This document shows, one piece after another, positions 2,419-15,940 of a stretch of DNA of 64,000 nt. The notes below the pieces were generated by a model. The model saw only the letters and a list, made by a program, of their open reading frames with translations, was not told the DNA's origin and did no database searches. A program made the position numbers and the translations under genes. Numbering within the stretch: position 1 is the first letter of the stretch; every line of letters starts with the position of its first letter. The DNA is from Candidatus Nomurabacteria bacterium (GTDB lineage Bacteria > Patescibacteriota > Minisyncoccia > Phycocordibacterales > JACOZG01): contig JADLCI010000007.1 of NCBI GenBank assembly GCA_020847275.1, positions 188,059-252,058 on the forward strand. Reading direction: 5' to 3'.

Positions 2419-2494
2419 GCCGGTGTAGCTCAGTTGGTAGAGCAACGGTTTTGTAAACCGTAGGTCGTCAGTTCAAGCCTGACCACCGGCTCCA
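2419..2494 (+). tRNA. tRNA-Thr (anticodon UGU)
   Basis: Cloverleaf read by eye. Acceptor stem gccggtg/caccggc. D-arm agctcagttggtagagc. Anticodon stem acggt/accgt with loop tttgtaa, giving anticodon TGT. T-arm ggtcgtcagttcaagcctgacc. Discriminator T followed by encoded CCA. Confidence 0.8.
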
Positions 2495-10973: not shown

Positions 10974-11693
10974 CTAGGCCGGGTCTGATTCGTAAGCCTC
11001 CATGTTCATCGCCACTTCCGGGGTGGTTTGGGTGCGGTTTCTGAAGCAGCCACAGTTCTGGCTATTCGTTTGGCAGCTTCTGCAGAGTGGGTGGTAACCA
11101 GCGGAGCAACAGGCTTCGCATCGATCTTGGCCACAATCACAGCGTCCACCCGGACATTCAGCTGAGTCAGCTTGTGGCGTCGAGGTGTCCATTTTCGTGA
11201 GGACAACAAGGCCGTATTCTTCTGTGAACTCGTTGTACTCGTCGCCGTCGTAGGAGAAGCCGTCGTTCCAGGGGATGATGAAGACGTGTCTCGTCTTGTC
11301 GGAGATGATCTCGATGACCAATTTCTTCTCCACGACGGACACTTGCGCCTGTCCAGATAGCCCCATCTCTCTGGTGATGGAATCAGCTCCGAGAAGTTTT
11401 TCGGGTACGGCGCCGAGAGGAAACTCCCAGCCGATGTTTTTGCAAGAAAATCCTGCTGGCGCGGGTATCGAGAAGGCAATTGATGTTCCTTCTGCGACAC
11501 CGTTCTCGTCTCTTTCCACGATGATTGAGAGGTTGCCATTGCCGCGGTACGGAAGGATCAACTCGCCGAGCTTCTGTGGCGTTACTTCTGTTGTCGTCAC
11601 CGCCCTGAACTCGCCTTGGGGGGCCGAATACAGGATTGCTGGCAAAATCAAGAACCCGAGCAACATCACGAACACCAGTACCTTTTTCAACAT
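10974..11693 (-). CDS. hypothetical secreted protein with Cys-rich C-terminal tail
   Basis: N-terminal signal peptide [26 protein letters not shown]-terminal 60 aa contain at least 10 Cys ([37 protein letters not shown]). Confidence 0.5.
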
Positions 11694-11843: not shown

Positions 11844-11872
11844 TTGCCAGTAGACCGGTCATTTGTTATACT
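11844..11872 (+). promoter_or_regulatory. sigma70-like promoter candidate upstream of rpmF
   Basis: TTGCCA, 17-nt spacer, TATACT. Lies about 10 nt upstream of the first in-frame ATG. Confidence 0.3.
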
Positions 11873-11882
11873 CATTCTCGTT

Positions 11883-12110
11883 ATGGTTGTAAGAATGCGG
11901 CATACGCGATCTCACACTGGTAATCGGCGCTCACATCATGCGCTGAAGTCTTTGCCGTTAGTGAAATGCGAGAAGTGTGGTGACCAGAAACTACGTCACC
12001 GTCTCTGTCTCAATTGTGGTACTTATCGCAACCGAGTTTTGATTGATGTGGTGTCTAAGCAAGAGAAGAAAGACAAGAAGAGAAAAAAGGTGGCAAGTGA
12101 GGCGAGGTAG
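11883..12110 (+). CDS. rpmF: 50S ribosomal protein L32
   Basis: RRSHHAL...[22 protein letters not shown] matches the L32 zinc-ribbon consensus. The track ORF 11616..12110 over-extends upstream. Plausible starts are ATG 11883 or ATG 11895. Confidence 0.75.
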
Positions 12111-12157: not shown

Positions 12158-13063
12158 ATGGCTAACCGGCATCTGGCAAGAAGTATTGCTCTGCAGTCGC
12201 TCTTTGAGTGGGACGCGCGTGGTTATGCCACAGAGGATTTGGCCGGTGTCATTTTACGAAATGTTGCTGAATTCGGGCCGGGCTTGGAAGACGATGTTTT
12301 TATAAAAAGATTGGTTTCCGAGACAATTGATCGGAAGGAAAAGCTGGATTTAATTATTGCTAAGGCGGCACCAGATTGGCCGATTGAGCAGATTGCCATG
12401 ATTGACCGTAATGTTTTACGGCTCGGTCTCTGTGAGCTTCTCTTCTCTGACCATAAGGAAGTACCAGCGCGAGTGGCAATCAATGAGGCGATTGAGCTGG
12501 CGAAGACATTTGGCGGGGATAATTCTGGTAAGTTTGTGAACGGTGTACTCGGGGCAATTTACAAAGAGATGGGGGAGCCAGGGAAAGATGATGTTCCCGC
12601 GAAGAAAAAAAGACCGAGAGATATTCCCTACGAACAGATGCCGGTGGAGAAGCTGGGTGGGGCCGTCGTTTATTGCCGTGAGAATGGTCAGATTTTTTTG
12701 GCTCTTGTTCACGATATGTTTGGTTACTGGACTCTCTCCAAGGGGCATCTAAATCAGGGGGAGGAGACGGGTGTCGGCGTTGCTCGGGAAATCAAAGAGG
12801 AGATGTCTTTAACGGTGAGAGTTCTTGACCACCTGGCAGACAATGAATACATTTCTTCTGACCCAGAGAAGGGTAAATTACGCAAACAGGTCTCTTATTT
12901 TCTGGCCGAAGCGGAGGACAAGAACTCTTTGAAACTGACAAAGTCTGGTGGATTGGATGACGCCCGCTGGTTTGATTTGTCCGAAATCGCGGGTCTAAAA
13001 ATGTATGACGATGTTGTTCCCTTTGTGACGAAAGCAATTAGAATTTTGTCTACTAAAAAGTAA
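12158..13063 (+). CDS. nusB: transcription antitermination factor NusB fused to a C-terminal NUDIX hydrolase domain
   Basis: First ~140 aa match the NusB fold (ARSIALQSLFEWD...AINEAIELAKTFGGDNSGKFVNGVL). C-terminal half has a Nudix box GHLNQGEETGVGVAREIKEEMSL (G-x5-E-x7-REUxEE). Confidence 0.8.
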   Translation: MANRHLARSIALQSLFEWDARGYATEDLAGVILRNVAEFGPGLEDDVFIKRLVSETIDRKEKLDLIIAKAAPDWPIEQIAMIDRNVLRLGLCELLFSDHKEVPARVAINEAIELAKTFGGDNSGKFVNGVLGAIYKEMGEPGKDDVPAKKKRPRDIPYEQMPVEKLGGAVVYCRENGQIFLALVHDMFGYWTLSKGHLNQGEETGVGVAREIKEEMSLTVRVLDHLADNEYISSDPEKGKLRKQVSYFLAEAEDKNSLKLTKSGGLDDARWFDLSEIAGLKMYDDVVPFVTKAIRILSTKK

Positions 13064-13734
13064 TGAACTGGCAACAGGAATTCAAGAACCCCGATCTACT
13101 GCGTGAGGCTTTCACGCACCGTTCTTATCTGAACGAACATCCAGAAATAAATCTGTCGCATAATGAACGGTTGGAATTTTTGGGCGACGCGGTTTTGGAA
13201 CTGGTAACGACGGAGTATCTTTATACTAAGTATCAAGATGCGAATGAGGGTGAGCTAACTGCTTACCGTGCCGCATTGGTAAATACGGAGACATTATCAG
13301 CTGTGGCGCGGGAAGCAGGGATGAACGACTATCTCTTGCTTTCTCGTGGTGAGTTACGCGATACTGGTCGGGCTCGCTCTGTTATTCTTGCAAACACTTT
13401 TGAAGCAGTGCTCGGCGCCATTTTCTTAGACCGAGGTTATCTTGCTGTGCGTGATTTTCTTGATCACTATCTTTTCCCTAAGACAGATAAAATTGTGAAG
13501 GAAGCACTTTGGCAGGATGCCAAAAGCCTTTTTCAGGAGAAAGCACAGTCAGTCTCTGGTGTAACACCGGATTATCGAGTTTTGGGTGAGGTCGGGCCGG
13601 ATCATGATAAGATTTTTACTGTCGGACTTTATCTCAACAAAGAGCAAATTTCCACGGGAACTGGACCATCCAAACAGCGCGCCGAACAAGAAGCGGCGCG
13701 TCTTGGTTTAATTATCAAAGAGTGGAACAATTAA
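13063..13734 (+). CDS. rnc: ribonuclease III
   Basis: RNase III signature ERLEFLGDAVLELV plus a C-terminal dsRBD. Start overlaps the nusB stop (TAATG). Confidence 0.9.
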   Translation: MNWQQEFKNPDLLREAFTHRSYLNEHPEINLSHNERLEFLGDAVLELVTTEYLYTKYQDANEGELTAYRAALVNTETLSAVAREAGMNDYLLLSRGELRDTGRARSVILANTFEAVLGAIFLDRGYLAVRDFLDHYLFPKTDKIVKEALWQDAKSLFQEKAQSVSGVTPDYRVLGEVGPDHDKIFTVGLYLNKEQISTGTGPSKQRAEQEAARLGLIIKEWNN

Positions 13735-13744
13735 GTTTAGAACA

Positions 13745-15940
13745 ATGCGTTTGAAGCGGTTAGAATTGTCTGGGTTTAAATCTTTTGCTAAGCCAACAGA
13801 GTTTCTTTTTGATTCGCCGATTACGGCAATCGTTGGACCCAATGGTTCTGGCAAATCTAACTCCGCTGAGGCCTTTCGCTGGGTGCTCGGCGAGCGTTCC
13901 CTGAAATCTCTTCGGGGACAGAAGGGGGAAGATTTGATTTTTAATGGAACAGGGGGACGGTCTAACCGTGCCGTAGTTTCACTTGTCTTCGATAATTCAG
14001 ACCGATATTTCAACTTTGATTACGATGAAGTTAAGCTCACTCGAGAGGTCTATCGTGATGGTCAGAATGTTTACGCGGTTAACGGGACAATAGTGCGCTA
14101 TCGTGATCTCACCGAACTCTTAGCCGGTGTTTCACTCGGCGCCTCAGATCACTACATCATCAATCAGGGCGAGGCTGATCGCGTTCTTTCTGCTAACCCA
14201 CGTGAACGCCGGGCCCTGGTGGAAGATGCGCTCGGTTTACGTTTGTACCAGTGGAAAATTGCGGAGAGTGAAAAAAAATTAGAACAAACAAAAAATAATT
14301 TGAATCAGGTGATGAGCCTGCGTCGAGAAATTGCCCCCCACCTACGTTTCCTTAAGAAACAGATGGAAAAGGTTGAGCAAGCGGATCAATTGCGCCGAGA
14401 CTTGAAGGGGCTTTATTTGGAATATTTAAAACGGGAGGAGTCATATTTAATTCAAGAAAAGAAAAATTTAATTGAGGAAAGACAATCACCGGAAGGTGAG
14501 TTGAGAGAAATAGTTGGCAAATTAGCAAAGGAAAAGACAACCGAAGAAACCGAGGTTGAGGTTAGGATTCAAACTAACCGCGTGCGCGTGGAGAACGAAT
14601 TGCGAAATGTCGTTATGGAAAAAGAAAAACTAAGCCGCCAACTAGGGAGAGTAGAGGGGATGATTGAACTTAAAAGAGAAGCGATGACTAGTTCTGATTT
14701 GCCATCACAGCGGGATTTTTCTTTTACCGAAGTGTCTGATTTATTTCGACGACTAGAACAAGAAATTGGGGATGCGGGTAAGTTGTCTGACGTCTTTTCC
14801 ATCCGTAATGTTCTTCGGAAAATAACAGAGGTGCTAAAAAATTTTCTCCAACAGGGTCGGGAGAAAGACGAGAAGATGGAGCTGACTATGGAAATGGAGA
14901 GATTAGAAGCGGAGCAGAAGATGCTTGCGTTGGGGGTGGCAGATTTGAATGAAAAGGAGGAAAAACTGGAAGCCGAGAAGCTGAAACTAGAGAGAGAATT
15001 GGCGTCAACCATAGCATCTGTGCGTGAAGCCGAGCGGGAGATTTTTAATCTCAAAACTCGTCGTCAAGAATTGGAATCAAAACTGAACCTCCTTGATTCT
15101 CGAGCGGCGAGACTGAGGCTTGAGGAAACTAATTTCCAGAGTGAGCTGAACGAAGCGAGAGTTCTGGTCGATCAGGAGGTTGCACTTTATAAAAATTTTG
15201 TTTTGGCAGATGTTGACGAGAAAAGAGAAGAGCAAGAGAAGCGGCGCCACCAATTGGAAAGATTGAAGATAAAATTAGAAGATTTGGGGATAGAGTCGGG
15301 AGATACCATAAAGGAATATCGTGAAGTCAGCGAACGGGACATCTTCCTCTCCAGGGAGATTGCCGATCTTGAGGCGGCCGGGGCATCATTGCGGGTGGTG
15401 ATAGCCGAGTTAGTAGAAAAAATTGAACATGAATTTCGTGAGGGATTGTCTAAAATCAATAAACAATTTCAGGACTTCTTCTCATTAATGTTTGGTGGTG
15501 GCACGGCCGATTTGAGTATCGTTAAACAAAAATTGGTAGGGAAAACGGGGGATGAGGCGGGGGATGTAGAAACAGGAGAAGAGGCTAGTGGTTTGGATAT
15601 CAGAATCAATTTGCCACGGAAGAAGATTCGCGGTCTTGAGATGCTATCTGGTGGGGAGAGGGCACTCGTGTCAATTGCGCTACTCTTTGCTTTATCGCAA
15701 GTTAACCCCCCGCCGTTTCTTGTCCTCGATGAGACGGACGCGGCGCTCGATGAAGCAAACTCCAGGAAATATGGTGATATGGTGGCGAATCTTGCGAAAC
15801 ACTCTCAACTGATTTTGATCACTCATAATCGCGAGACAATGAGTCGCGCAGGCGTACTCTATGGTGTGACGATGAACACTGACGGCGTTTCCAAGCTGCT
15901 CTCAATTAAGTTTGATGATGCCACGCAATTCGCGAAATAA
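13745..15940 (+). CDS. smc: SMC-family chromosome segregation ATPase, short form (731 aa, no obvious canonical hinge)
   Basis: N-terminal Walker A head MRLKRLELSGFKSFA...IVGPNGSGKSN. Long coiled-coil. C-terminal signature LSGGERALVSIALLFA and Walker B FLVLDETDAALD. Confidence 0.75.
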   Translation: MRLKRLELSGFKSFAKPTEFLFDSPITAIVGPNGSGKSNSAEAFRWVLGERSLKSLRGQKGEDLIFNGTGGRSNRAVVSLVFDNSDRYFNFDYDEVKLTREVYRDGQNVYAVNGTIVRYRDLTELLAGVSLGASDHYIINQGEADRVLSANPRERRALVEDALGLRLYQWKIAESEKKLEQTKNNLNQVMSLRREIAPHLRFLKKQMEKVEQADQLRRDLKGLYLEYLKREESYLIQEKKNLIEERQSPEGELREIVGKLAKEKTTEETEVEVRIQTNRVRVENELRNVVMEKEKLSRQLGRVEGMIELKREAMTSSDLPSQRDFSFTEVSDLFRRLEQEIGDAGKLSDVFSIRNVLRKITEVLKNFLQQGREKDEKMELTMEMERLEAEQKMLALGVADLNEKEEKLEAEKLKLERELASTIASVREAEREIFNLKTRRQELESKLNLLDSRAARLRLEETNFQSELNEARVLVDQEVALYKNFVLADVDEKREEQEKRRHQLERLKIKLEDLGIESGDTIKEYREVSERDIFLSREIADLEAAGASLRVVIAELVEKIEHEFREGLSKINKQFQDFFSLMFGGGTADLSIVKQKLVGKTGDEAGDVETGEEASGLDIRINLPRKKIRGLEMLSGGERALVSIALLFALSQVNPPPFLVLDETDAALDEANSRKYGDMVANLAKHSQLILITHNRETMSRAGVLYGVTMNTDGVSKLLSIKFDDATQFAK

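What the first reader, a model, noticed from the sequence alone, without database searches (positions are those of the whole stretch)
12158..13063. NusB fused to a NUDIX hydrolase domain
The N-terminal 140 aa are a standard NusB. After a Lys/Pro-rich linker comes a complete Nudix fold with a near-canonical Nudix box (GHLNQGEETGVGVAREIKEEMSL). A Nudix pyrophosphohydrolase tethered to the rRNA antitermination factor could act on nucleotide-derived caps such as NAD or dpCoA, or on alarmones, at transcription complexes. The gene overlaps rnc by 1 nt, and RNase III is the rRNA processing enzyme.
Basis: partly seen in the sequence, partly recalled or inferred. Interest (0 to 1): 0.5.

Follow-up and report, generated by a model that had tools for sequence, protein, structure and literature searches.

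The report
NusB fused to Ap4A-hydrolase-like Nudix domain
In a large group of ultra-small bacteria (Paceibacteria/Parcubacteria), the ribosomal-RNA transcription factor NusB is made as one protein with a nucleotide-polyphosphate-binding Nudix domain, and the fusion appears undescribed; the domain's catalytic residues have been lost many times while its ligand-binding residues are kept.

Summary
ORF 12158..13063 (+) encodes 301 aa. Residues 1-137 are a bona fide NusB (Pfam E 1.7e-32; TIGR01951 above its cut-off; TM 0.88 to Aquifex NusB). A short basic tether follows, then a full Nudix fold carrying a complete Nudix box (only the last G is S).

It is not a frameshift artefact. At least 594 species-level genomes match, and the 80 best loci all carry both halves in one frame inside a fixed rpmF / nusB-nudix / rnc / smc cluster.

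The Nudix half belongs to the Ap4A/Ap6A-hydrolase (NUDT2-like) group, not to NudC or the curated RppH families.

New finding: across the family the catalytic set (G, E, RE, EE) is intact in only 61% and 36% of two samples, and its status changes at least 33 times on a tree. Phosphate-binding lysines, stacking tyrosines and the X-loop stay 95-100% conserved.

So the conserved job is probably binding a nucleotide polyphosphate, most plausibly the 5' PPP or Np4N end of the nascent boxA-bearing pre-rRNA leader. Hydrolysis is kept in about half the lineages, including this one. The mechanism is inferred, not shown.

I found no paper describing the fusion. Verdict: new variant of known kinds, moderate interest.

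The parts
12158..13063 (+). Whole nusB-nudix gene (301 aa plus stop)
   Evidence: ORF list and sequence. It is 100% identical to NCBI protein P0001, named 'transcription antitermination factor NusB [Candidatus Nomurabacteria bacterium]', on a 296-kb contig.
12158..12568 (+). NusB domain, residues 1-137 (seven helices)
   Evidence: Pfam NusB E 1.7e-32. TIGR01951 scores 123 bits against a cut-off of 88. phmmer against PDB finds Aquifex NusB at E 1.1e-19, with the VAINEAIELAK..GKFVNGVL motif aligned. Foldseek gives TM 0.88 and 34% identity to 3R2D_B. The AlphaFold model has helices 2-21, 25-39, 47-58, 60-70, 81-96, 104-119 and 121-137.
12569..12643 (+). Tether, residues 138-162: conserved GEPGKD hinge, then a Lys/Pro-rich flexible stretch, then a PYEQMP lead-in to the Nudix fold
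   Evidence: pLDDT is below 50 for residues 141-153. G139, E140, P141 and K143 are 91-93% conserved, while length varies from about 12 to about 50 residues in distant members.
12644..13060 (+). Nudix domain, residues 163-301
   Evidence: Pfam NUDIX E 1.1e-12. The family profile hits Aquifex Ap4A hydrolase 3I7U at E 1.8e-20, then CT771, Ndx1, C. elegans Ap4A hydrolase and NUDT2. Foldseek gives TM 0.89 to 3I7U. pLDDT is mostly above 90.
12743..12811 (+). Nudix box, residues 196-218 (GHLNQGEETGVGVAREIKEEMSL); catalytic set G196, E202, R210, E211, E214, E215 intact here
   Evidence: Read directly from the sequence.
12836..12886 (+). X-loop and basic strand, residues 227-243 (ADNEYISSDPEKGKLRK), with near-invariant N229, Y231, P236, G239, K243
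   Evidence: These residues are 91-99% conserved even in members with a broken box. The segment aligns with the C. elegans Ap4A hydrolase Y76/K79/K81/K83 region. The X-loop tyrosine is the ApnA-hydrolase specificity motif (PMC5389931).
11895..12110 (+). rpmF (ribosomal protein L32), upstream gene of the conserved cluster
   Evidence: Translation [17 protein letters not shown].... L32 lies upstream of the fusion in nearly all of the 80 loci and is called as Ribosomal_L32p in L081.
11844..11872 (+). Promoter-like site upstream of rpmF (10 of 12 matches, TG-extended); a candidate operon promoter only
   Evidence: Consensus scan. No terminator-like site lies between rpmF, nusB-nudix and rnc.
13063..13734 (+). 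rnc (RNase III), start overlapping the nusB-nudix stop by 1 nt
   Evidence: Pfam Ribonuclease_3 plus dsrm. rnc lies directly downstream of the fusion in 80 of 80 loci.

Best explanation
This is the cell's NusB, the boxA-RNA and S10-binding subunit of the rRNA transcription/antitermination complex. In the Paceibacteria lineage it has acquired a C-terminal Nudix domain of the Ap4A-hydrolase/NUDT2 type on a short flexible basic tether.

Shown: the domain identities, the intact catalytic box in this protein, the vertical inheritance of the fusion, and its fixed place in an rpmF / nusB-nudix / rnc / smc cluster.

Inferred: when NusB-S10 sits on boxA in the nascent pre-rRNA leader, the tethered Nudix domain binds a nucleotide-polyphosphate group nearby. 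The most plausible target is the 5'-terminal triphosphate, diphosphate or Np4N cap of that same leader. In lineages with an intact box, including this one, the domain would hydrolyse it to a 5' monophosphate. That would prepare the leader released by RNase III for 5'-end-dependent decay or processing.

The catalytic residues are lost repeatedly while the phosphate-binding and base-stacking residues remain. The function common to the whole family is therefore ligand (5'-end) binding, with hydrolysis as an optional addition.
For: Identity of the two halves.

The fusion is real and old. The top 120 homologues are about 300 aa; 118 carry both Pfam domains in the precomputed annotation, and my domain HMMs found both halves in the full-length members checked. 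Of the 80 best loci, 78 carry one intact ORF with both halves; one is cut by a contig end and one has a single in-frame stop. Divergence of the two halves is correlated (r = 0.83; mean pairwise identity 63% for NusB and 53.5% for Nudix). A distant member with about 31% identity in the Nudix half keeps the rpmF / fusion / rnc order.

Subfamily. The best solved relatives are Ap4A/Ap6A hydrolases and NUDT2. NUDT2 and RppH both convert PPP-RNA to P-RNA, and NUDT2 is reported to be close to RppH in sequence and structure (PMC8616924).

Binding versus catalysis. The full G/E/RE/EE set is present in 137 of 226 and in 42 of 117 fused domains, with at least 33 state changes on a neighbour-joining tree. 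F188, W191, T192, K195, Y231, K243, Y247, G265, W271, Y283 and D285 remain about 86-100% conserved in each sample, most of them 95-100%, including in box-broken members. K195, K238/K240/K243 and Y283 align with K36, K79/K81/K83 and Y121 of C. elegans Ap4A hydrolase; their roles there are from my memory of the 2002 structure paper. Y231 aligns within one residue of Y76, the ApnA X-loop tyrosine (PMC5389931).

Functional context. NusB and RNase III are genetically and mechanistically coupled in E. coli. rnc mutations suppress nus defects, Nus factors tether boxA to the polymerase, and the assembled complex boosts co-transcriptional RNase III cleavage (PMC4807359; bioRxiv 10.64898/2026.03.17.712431). 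Here the two genes are adjacent in every locus examined.
Against: There is no biochemical or structural evidence for any substrate. The AlphaFold model gives no confident inter-domain geometry (pTM 0.49). No rRNA operon lies in the window, so the presence and spacing of boxA relative to the transcript 5' end could not be checked. Whole genomes were not available, so I could not test whether this is the only RppH-like Nudix or the only NusB in the cell. The rpmF...rnc-smc neighbourhood resembles the ancient rpmF-plsX-fab-acpP / rnc-smc-ftsY order of other bacteria (my own knowledge), so adjacency to rnc may be partly inherited gene order rather than selected coupling. Some of the near-invariant residues (W191, G196, G265, Y247, W271) may simply be fold core.
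Confidence: 0.4

Rival explanations
1. Small-molecule sensor or local scavenger. The Nudix domain binds, and where it is active degrades, a free dinucleoside polyphosphate or alarmone (Ap4A, Ap6A, possibly (p)ppGpp or ADP-ribose). It thereby tunes NusB activity or rRNA transcription to cell state, much as the Nudix-like domain of NrtR senses ADP-ribose for a transcription regulator.
For: The closest solved relatives are free-ApnA hydrolases. Ligand-binding residues are retained while catalytic residues are lost, which is the classic signature of enzyme-derived sensor domains. The NrtR Nudix domain appears among the fold hits (E 1.1e-8). Non-enzymatic Nudix domains in regulation are established (PMC5389931).
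Against: The NrtR match is clearly weaker (TM 0.66 against 0.84-0.89 for Ap4A hydrolases). About half of the members, including this one, keep a full catalytic set. No allosteric interface with the NusB domain is predicted, since the tether is flexible.
Confidence: 0.25
2. Protein-protein adaptor. The Nudix fold is a structural subunit of the Paceibacteria rRNA transcription complex, bridging NusB-S10-boxA to RNA polymerase, NusA or NusG. This would resemble the enzyme-fold protein SuhB in the E. coli complex, with catalysis irrelevant.
For: SuhB is an inositol monophosphatase whose enzymatic activity is thought not to be its main role. It mediates the boxA-polymerase loop and stabilises the complex (PMC4807359; bioRxiv 10.64898/2026.03.17.712431). 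Repeated loss of catalytic residues alongside strong purifying selection on the domain fits this reading.
Against: The best-conserved non-core residues are those that line the nucleotide and polyphosphate site in homologues: K195, K243, Y231 and Y283. That points to a ligand rather than a protein interface. Whether these genomes lack SuhB was not testable.
Confidence: 0.15
3. Functionally unlinked fusion. A housekeeping Ap4A hydrolase (house-cleaning Nudix) happened to fuse to nusB in a streamlined genome, and the two halves work independently.
For: Gene fusions are common in reduced genomes. The tether is flexible and variable in length. Stand-alone relatives of the domain exist (P0157, P0158, P0170).
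Against: A house-cleaning hydrolase should keep its catalytic glutamates, yet 39-64% of members have lost at least one and the domain is still retained. The fusion was never reversed in any of the 80 loci, apart from one single-base stop. The GEPGKD hinge is conserved.
Confidence: 0.15
4. Artefact: a frameshift or assembly error joined two separate genes, or the C-terminal half is not a real Nudix domain.
For: None found. One related MAG (L076) has a TAA at the domain boundary.
Against: The same architecture occurs in independent assemblies from NCBI, JGI, ENA and Logan and in 78 intact ORFs among the 80 species-level loci. The Nudix fold is predicted with high confidence and has strong PDB matches.
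Confidence: 0.01

Closest known systems
NusB (E. coli, Aquifex aeolicus, Thermotoga, M. tuberculosis)
   Same: Residues 1-137 form the same seven-helix fold. TM is 0.88 with 34% identity to Aquifex NusB, TIGR01951 scores above its cut-off, and the C-terminal VAINEAIELAK/FVNGVL motif is conserved.
   Different: Canonical NusB is about 130-160 aa and ends after the last helix. Here a conserved GEPGKD hinge, a basic tether and a 140-aa Nudix domain follow.
Ap4A/Ap6A Nudix hydrolases: Aquifex aq_158 (3I7U), T. thermophilus Ndx1, Chlamydia CT771, C. elegans Ap4A hydrolase, human NUDT2, mycobacterial MutT1 Nudix domain
   Same: These are the best sequence-profile and fold matches (E 1.8e-20; TM 0.84-0.89). 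They share the W-T-x-[SP]-K-G motif, the basic K-G-K-x-x-K strand, the X-loop tyrosine and a C-terminal tyrosine.
   Different: Those proteins are stand-alone (or, for MutT1, fused to a histidine phosphatase) and keep the catalytic box. This family is fused to NusB, has its own invariant X-loop (N-E-Y-x-x-x-x-P-x-x-G-K), and has lost catalytic residues in about 40-60% of members.
RppH, the bacterial RNA 5' pyrophosphohydrolase
   Same: It is a Nudix enzyme related to ApnA hydrolases. The proposed activity (5' PPP or Np4N to 5' P) is the one RppH performs, and NUDT2 shares it (PMC8616924).
   Different: This protein is not a member of the curated RppH families: about 12-20 bits against cut-offs of 116-241. 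PDB RppH chains match only at E about 0.4. RppH is free-standing and is not tethered to a transcription factor.
RsmB (Sun), a 16S rRNA m5C967 methyltransferase with an N-terminal NusB-like domain
   Same: It is a precedent for a NusB-fold RNA-binding module fused N-terminally to an enzyme that acts on rRNA. The RsmB models hit residues 7-143.
   Different: The RsmB N-domain is a paralogue, not the cell's NusB, and its partner is a methyltransferase. Here the NusB half passes the NusB equivalog threshold and all RsmB scores are far below their cut-offs.
NrtR and other non-catalytic Nudix domains
   Same: A Nudix fold attached to a gene-expression regulator, with an eroded catalytic box and retained ligand binding (PMC5389931). 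NrtR appears among the fold hits.
   Different: NrtR pairs the Nudix domain with a winged-helix DNA-binding domain and senses ADP-ribose. Here the partner is an RNA-binding elongation factor, many members are still catalytically intact, and the fold similarity is weaker (TM 0.66).
SuhB in the E. coli rRNA antitermination complex
   Same: An enzyme-fold protein recruited to the NusB-dependent rRNA transcription complex, where enzymatic activity seems secondary (PMC4807359).
   Different: SuhB has a different fold (inositol monophosphatase), is a separate polypeptide, and is not homologous to this domain.

Membership tests
NusB (TIGR01951 / PF01029) | Score above the curated equivalog/Pfam thresholds | tested here: met
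   TIGR01951 scores 123.3 bits against a cut-off of 88.35. PF01029 scores 113 bits against 23.1.
NusB (TIGR01951 / PF01029) | All-helical seven-helix NusB fold | tested here: met
   The AlphaFold model has seven helices in residues 2-137 with pLDDT mostly 80-96. Foldseek gives TM 0.88 to Aquifex NusB 3R2D_B and 4EYA_B.
NusB (TIGR01951 / PF01029) | Binds boxA RNA together with S10 (NusE) | not testable with these tools
   The only evidence is that the conserved C-terminal NusB motif aligns with Aquifex and Thermotoga NusB. No rRNA leader or boxA lies in the window.
NusB (TIGR01951 / PF01029) | Is the single NusB of the genome | tested here: inconclusive
   There is no second NusB-like ORF in the 64-kb window or in the related loci. 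Whole genomes were not available.
Nudix superfamily (PF00293) | Alpha/beta/alpha Nudix fold | tested here: met
   PF00293 E 1.1e-12. Foldseek gives probability 1.00 and TM up to 0.89 to solved Nudix enzymes.
Nudix superfamily (PF00293) | Nudix box GX5EX7REUXEEXGU with catalytic Glu residues | tested here: met
   In the window protein, residues 196-218 fit at all positions except the last G, which is S. At that position the family has G 104, S 68 and N 46, and the C. elegans Ap4A hydrolase has N there (alignment). At family level the full catalytic set is present in only 137 of 226 and 42 of 117 members.
Nudix superfamily (PF00293) | Mg2+/Mn2+-dependent pyrophosphohydrolase activity | not testable with these tools
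   This needs an enzyme assay.
ApnA hydrolase / NUDT2-like Nudix subgroup | Closest relatives are characterised Ap4A/Ap6A hydrolases | tested here: met
   Profile against PDB: 3I7U at E 1.8e-20, CT771 6e-15, Ndx1 1e-13, C. elegans Ap4A hydrolase 2e-13, NUDT2 5e-12. Foldseek gives the same ranking.
ApnA hydrolase / NUDT2-like Nudix subgroup | Conserved X-loop tyrosine downstream of the box (Tyr87 of human NUDT2; PMC5389931) and the P-K-G lysine | tested here: inconclusive
   Y231 (98-99% conserved) aligns within one residue of C. elegans Y76 and directly with the Aquifex IHY tyrosine. K195 (about 100% conserved) aligns with K36. Exact equivalence needs a structural superposition that I could not run.
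RppH (NCBIfam PRK00714 equivalogs) | Score above equivalog cut-off | tested here: not met
   Scores are about 12-20 bits against cut-offs of 116-241. PDB RppH chains match at E about 0.4.
NudC (NAD-cap / NADH diphosphatase) | SQPWPFPxS motif downstream of the box; score above NF001299 cut-off | tested here: not met
   The motif is absent from the sequence. NF001299 scores 23.3 bits against a cut-off of 158.
RsmB (NusB-like domain + methyltransferase) | C-terminal SAM-dependent methyltransferase domain; score above cut-off | tested here: not met
   RsmB models match only residues 7-143, at 15-56 bits against cut-offs of 269-540. The C-terminal half is Nudix.

The most novel reading that the evidence does not exclude
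The Nudix half is a built-in reader, and in about half of the lineages also an eraser, of the 5'-terminal triphosphate or Np4N cap. It would anchor the 5' end of the nascent pre-rRNA to the NusB-S10-boxA complex. That would be a transcription-coupled mechanism for recognising RNA 5' ends that links antitermination, leader looping, RNase III processing and leader decay. It could also functionally replace SuhB and/or RppH in Paceibacteria.
Probability: 0.2. Interest if true: 0.75.

Novelty: new variant of a known kind. Interest (0 to 1): 0.5.

Why it matters
NusB is a universal single-domain bacterial transcription factor. Here it carries an extra domain in all examined members of one of the largest uncultivated bacterial classes, yet databases name the protein plain 'NusB' and I found no paper that mentions the fusion.

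If the Nudix half acts on, or holds, the 5' end of the nascent rRNA leader, it would be the first case of RNA 5'-end chemistry physically wired into the rRNA antitermination complex. It would also show how ultra-small genomes merge RNA synthesis, processing and decay functions.

The repeated loss of catalytic residues with retention of binding residues is a natural experiment in the transition from enzyme to pseudoenzyme. It can be tested directly with recombinant proteins.

Tried and rejected
- **Frameshift or chimera:** rejected.
- **'Not a real Nudix fold':** rejected.
- **NudC-type NAD decapping and the curated RppH, MutT, ADP-ribose and CoA families:** all far below their cut-offs.
- **Literature:** searches for NusB plus Nudix, with and without 'fusion', found nothing relevant. 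The Nudix clan review has no mention of NusB. A broader search using taxon names was uninformative.
- **rRNA operon or boxA in the window:** none; the window holds only one tRNA.
- **Second NusB or Nudix in the window:** none.
- **Taxon names for distant fusions via cluster look-up:** no names returned. A second homologue search placed them in Paceibacterota/Minisyncoccia.
- **Phage collection search with the Nudix domain:** only weak generic Nudix hits at about 30% identity.
- **afdb50 fold library:** not installed.
- **Human Ap4A hydrolase structure paper:** not held. A CT771 search gave nothing useful. The residue roles in C. elegans Ap4A hydrolase therefore rest on my memory.
Full report
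**1. The observation**

The ORF lies exactly where stated: window 12158..13063 on the + strand, ATG start, 301 codons, TAA stop. Pfam finds NusB at residues 7-136 (E 1.7e-32) and NUDIX at 170-278 (E 1.1e-12). The NCBIfam equivalog TIGR01951 (nusB) scores 123 bits against a cut-off of 88.

The quoted Nudix box is residues 196-218. It fits GX5EX7REUXEEXGU at every specified position except the last glycine, which is Ser. Between the domains lies GEPGKDDVPAKKKRPRDIPYEQMP.

The stop codon shares one base with the ATG of the next gene (13063..13734), which is RNase III (Ribonuclease_3 plus dsrm).

**2. Real gene, not an artefact**

The protein is 100% identical to an NCBI entry named only 'transcription antitermination factor NusB [Candidatus Nomurabacteria bacterium]', on a 296-kb contig. 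The next 119 best homologues, from NCBI, JGI, ENA and Logan assemblies, are all 288-311 aa. Of the 120, 118 carry both Pfam domains in the precomputed annotation. My own domain HMMs found both halves in the full-length members checked.

The 80 best are all Paceibacteria/Parcubacteria-type MAGs (Vogel-, Taylor-, Adler-, Nomura- and Tagabacteria, Paceibacterota).
- All 80 loci have the NusB and Nudix halves in the same frame.
- They lie between rpmF (L32) and rnc, usually followed by an smc-like gene and preceded by dnaE and rnhB.
- Seventy-eight have an intact single ORF. One is cut by a contig end. One (L076) has a single-base GAA to TAA change exactly at the domain boundary.

A distant member, P0234 (about 31% identity in the Nudix half), still sits between rpmF and rnc. 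Its relatives are labelled Paceibacterota or Minisyncoccia.

Divergence of the two halves is tightly correlated across pairs (r = 0.83). The Nudix half evolves only slightly faster than NusB (mean pairwise identity 53.5% against 63%). The fusion is therefore old, vertically inherited and under purifying selection.

**3. Anatomy**

The AlphaFold model (54-sequence alignment, mean pLDDT 86.6) shows:
- a seven-helix domain at residues 2-137;
- a disordered stretch at 141-153 (pLDDT below 50);
- an alpha/beta Nudix domain at 163-299 with pLDDT mostly above 90.

The low pTM (0.49) means no fixed inter-domain orientation is predicted.

The helical domain superposes on Aquifex NusB with TM 0.88 and 34% identity. 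It aligns with solved NusB proteins at E 1e-19 to 1e-12, including the VAINEAIELAK...GKFVNGVL motif.

In the tether, the GEPGKD hinge just after the last NusB helix is over 90% conserved. The remainder is Lys-rich and varies from about 12 to about 50 residues in distant members.

**4. Which kind of Nudix**

By single sequence, by family profile and by fold, the nearest solved proteins are the same set:
- Aquifex aeolicus Ap4A hydrolase aq_158 (profile E 1.8e-20; TM 0.89);
- Chlamydia CT771;
- Thermus Ndx1 (an Ap6A hydrolase);
- C. elegans Ap4A hydrolase;
- human NUDT2;
- the Nudix domain of mycobacterial MutT1/Rv2985.

Dcp2 comes next. E. coli RppH and Bdellovibrio RppH match only marginally.

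The curated RppH, NudC, MutT, NudE and NudI models all score far below their cut-offs, and the NudC motif SQPWPFPxS is absent. The W-T-x-S-K-G motif, the basic strand K-G-K-x-R-K and a tyrosine in the X-loop match the ApnA-hydrolase pattern. The X-loop tyrosine is the recognised ApnA specificity motif (PMC5389931).

This subgroup is functionally close to RNA 5'-end pyrophosphohydrolases. NUDT2 converts PPP-RNA to P-RNA and is reported to be close to RppH in sequence and structure (PMC8616924).

**5. The unexpected result: the catalytic box is not what is conserved**

In 226 unique fused Nudix domains (the query's relatives, the 80 loci and the 50%-identity representatives), the full catalytic set G196/E202/R210/E211/E214/E215 is present in only 137. 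E211 is the Glu of 'RE' and corresponds to NUDT2 E58. That equivalence is from my own count of a remembered sequence; PDB entry 4IJX is titled an E58A mutant. E211 is replaced in 31% of the domains, by K, V, A, I or G.

In a second, more divergent sample centred on P0234, only 42 of 117 are canonical. A whole sub-clade has boxes such as 'AAIIKDKTNL' that Pfam no longer recognises.

On a neighbour-joining tree, at least 33 changes of state are needed, so the erosion is recurrent and not one lineage's accident.

By contrast, these residues are 86-100% conserved in each sample, most of them 95-100%, and each stays at least 90% conserved within the box-broken subset of the first sample: F188, W191, T192, K195, G196, N229, Y231, P236, G239, K243, V245, Y247, G265, W271, F272, Y283 and D285.

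In the HMMER alignments:
- K195 pairs with K36 of the C. elegans Ap4A hydrolase;
- K238/K240/K243 pair with K79/K81/K83;
- Y283 pairs with Y121;
- Y231 falls within one residue of Y76.

From my recollection of the 2002 crystal structure, these are the phosphate-binding lysines and the adenine-stacking tyrosines. That role assignment rests on memory and should be verified.

A plain housekeeping hydrolase would not behave this way. The pattern is that of a domain whose common, selected property is binding a nucleotide polyphosphate, with hydrolysis retained in about half of the lineages. The window's own protein has the complete set and is predicted to be catalytically competent.

**6. How it most likely works**

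Shown: the domain identities, the intact box in this protein, the flexible tether, and the conserved operon-like context. That context includes a promoter-like site upstream of rpmF and no terminator-like site between rpmF, the fusion and rnc (consensus matches only).

Established elsewhere:
- NusB with S10 binds boxA in the nascent rRNA leader and stays attached to the elongating polymerase.
- nus defects are suppressed by rnc mutations.

Inferred: a polyphosphate-nucleotide binding or hydrolysing module held 12-50 residues from boxA-bound NusB is placed next to the 5' end of the same leader. The most economical reading is that it binds the 5' PPP, PP or Np4N cap of the nascent pre-rRNA and, where active, converts it to 5' P. 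That would couple transcription, RNase III cleavage and disposal or processing of the leader. I put this at about 0.4.

Rivals:
- a free-ligand sensor or scavenger for ApnA or alarmones that tunes NusB, in the manner of NrtR (0.25);
- a SuhB-like structural adaptor (0.15);
- a functionally unlinked fusion (0.15), which is weakened by the loss of catalytic residues without loss of the domain;
- an artefact (0.01 or less).

**7. Caveats**

- There is no rRNA operon in the window, and I had no access to whole genomes. I could not check boxA spacing, the presence of other Nudix or RppH genes, SuhB, or a second nusB. None lies in these 64 kb.
- The neighbourhood rpmF ... rnc-smc (with khpA and trmD further on in L081) resembles the ancient rpmF-plsX-fab-acpP / rnc-smc-ftsY order of other bacteria (my own knowledge). 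Adjacency to rnc is therefore suggestive, not proof of coupling.
- The tree used for counting losses is a quick neighbour-joining tree.

**8. Comparison with what is known, and novelty**

Each half belongs to a well-known family; the combination does not appear in the literature I could search. Precedents for the logic exist:
- RsmB carries a NusB-like RNA-binding domain in front of an rRNA-modifying enzyme.
- NrtR couples an eroded Nudix domain to a transcription regulator.
- SuhB is an enzyme-fold subunit of the rRNA antitermination complex.

None is the same thing. I rate this a new variant of known kinds, of moderate interest (0.5). It is real, clade-wide, apparently undescribed, carries an informative enzyme-to-binder erosion pattern, and is directly testable with recombinant protein. 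The mechanism remains inferential.

Noticed in passing
window 13745..15940 (+): The SMC-like protein is only 731 aa. Pfam finds the split SMC_N head (residues 3-716) but no hinge domain. tblastn spans of about 2.2 kb in most related loci suggest that a short, apparently hinge-less SMC is the norm in this clade.
   Followed up: partly
window 10974..11693 (-): A 239-aa ORF with a hydrophobic N-terminus and a Cys-rich C-terminus. It has no Pfam hit and no tblastn match in any of the 80 related loci. It looks like an orphan gene in a length-variable spacer between rnhB and rpmF.
   Followed up: partly
L076:4880-4882 (CAYUGY010000018.1): One related MAG has TAA in place of the GAA codon of E137, exactly at the NusB/tether boundary, which splits the fusion. 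This is either a natural split or an assembly error.
   Followed up: partly
L083:6001-6453 (protein P0157): A 150-aa stand-alone relative of the fused Nudix domain (37% identity) lies among integrase-, DNA-methylase- and Rep O-like genes. This suggests a phage or mobile-element copy of this Nudix type.
   Followed up: partly
proteins P0126, P0200, P0225, P0184, P0239: This Nudix clade occurs in other architectures: NusB-Nudix-Rho_N; sigma70 region 4 plus DnaA_C HTH plus Nudix; a 577-aa protein with a weak cold-shock domain hit plus NusB plus Nudix; and tandem Nudix-Nudix. Most added modules bind nucleic acids.
   Followed up: partly
proteins P0234, P0272-P0278, P0280; locus L081:6001-6900: This sub-clade of fusions has a Nudix half so eroded that the precomputed Pfam annotation reports only NusB. 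It still keeps the W-T-x-P-K-G motif, the X-loop Tyr, the W-F motif and the Y-x-D motif.
   Followed up: yes
window 11844..11872 (+): A promoter-like site (TTGCCA, 17-nt spacer, TATACT, with TG) lies about 23 nt upstream of the rpmF start at 11895. No terminator-like site lies between rpmF, nusB-nudix and rnc. A strong terminator-like hairpin on the minus strand sits at 15973-15942, just after smc.
   Followed up: no
window 2419..2491 (+): The only Rfam match in the 64-kb window is one tRNA. There is no rRNA, riboswitch or other known RNA family.
   Followed up: no
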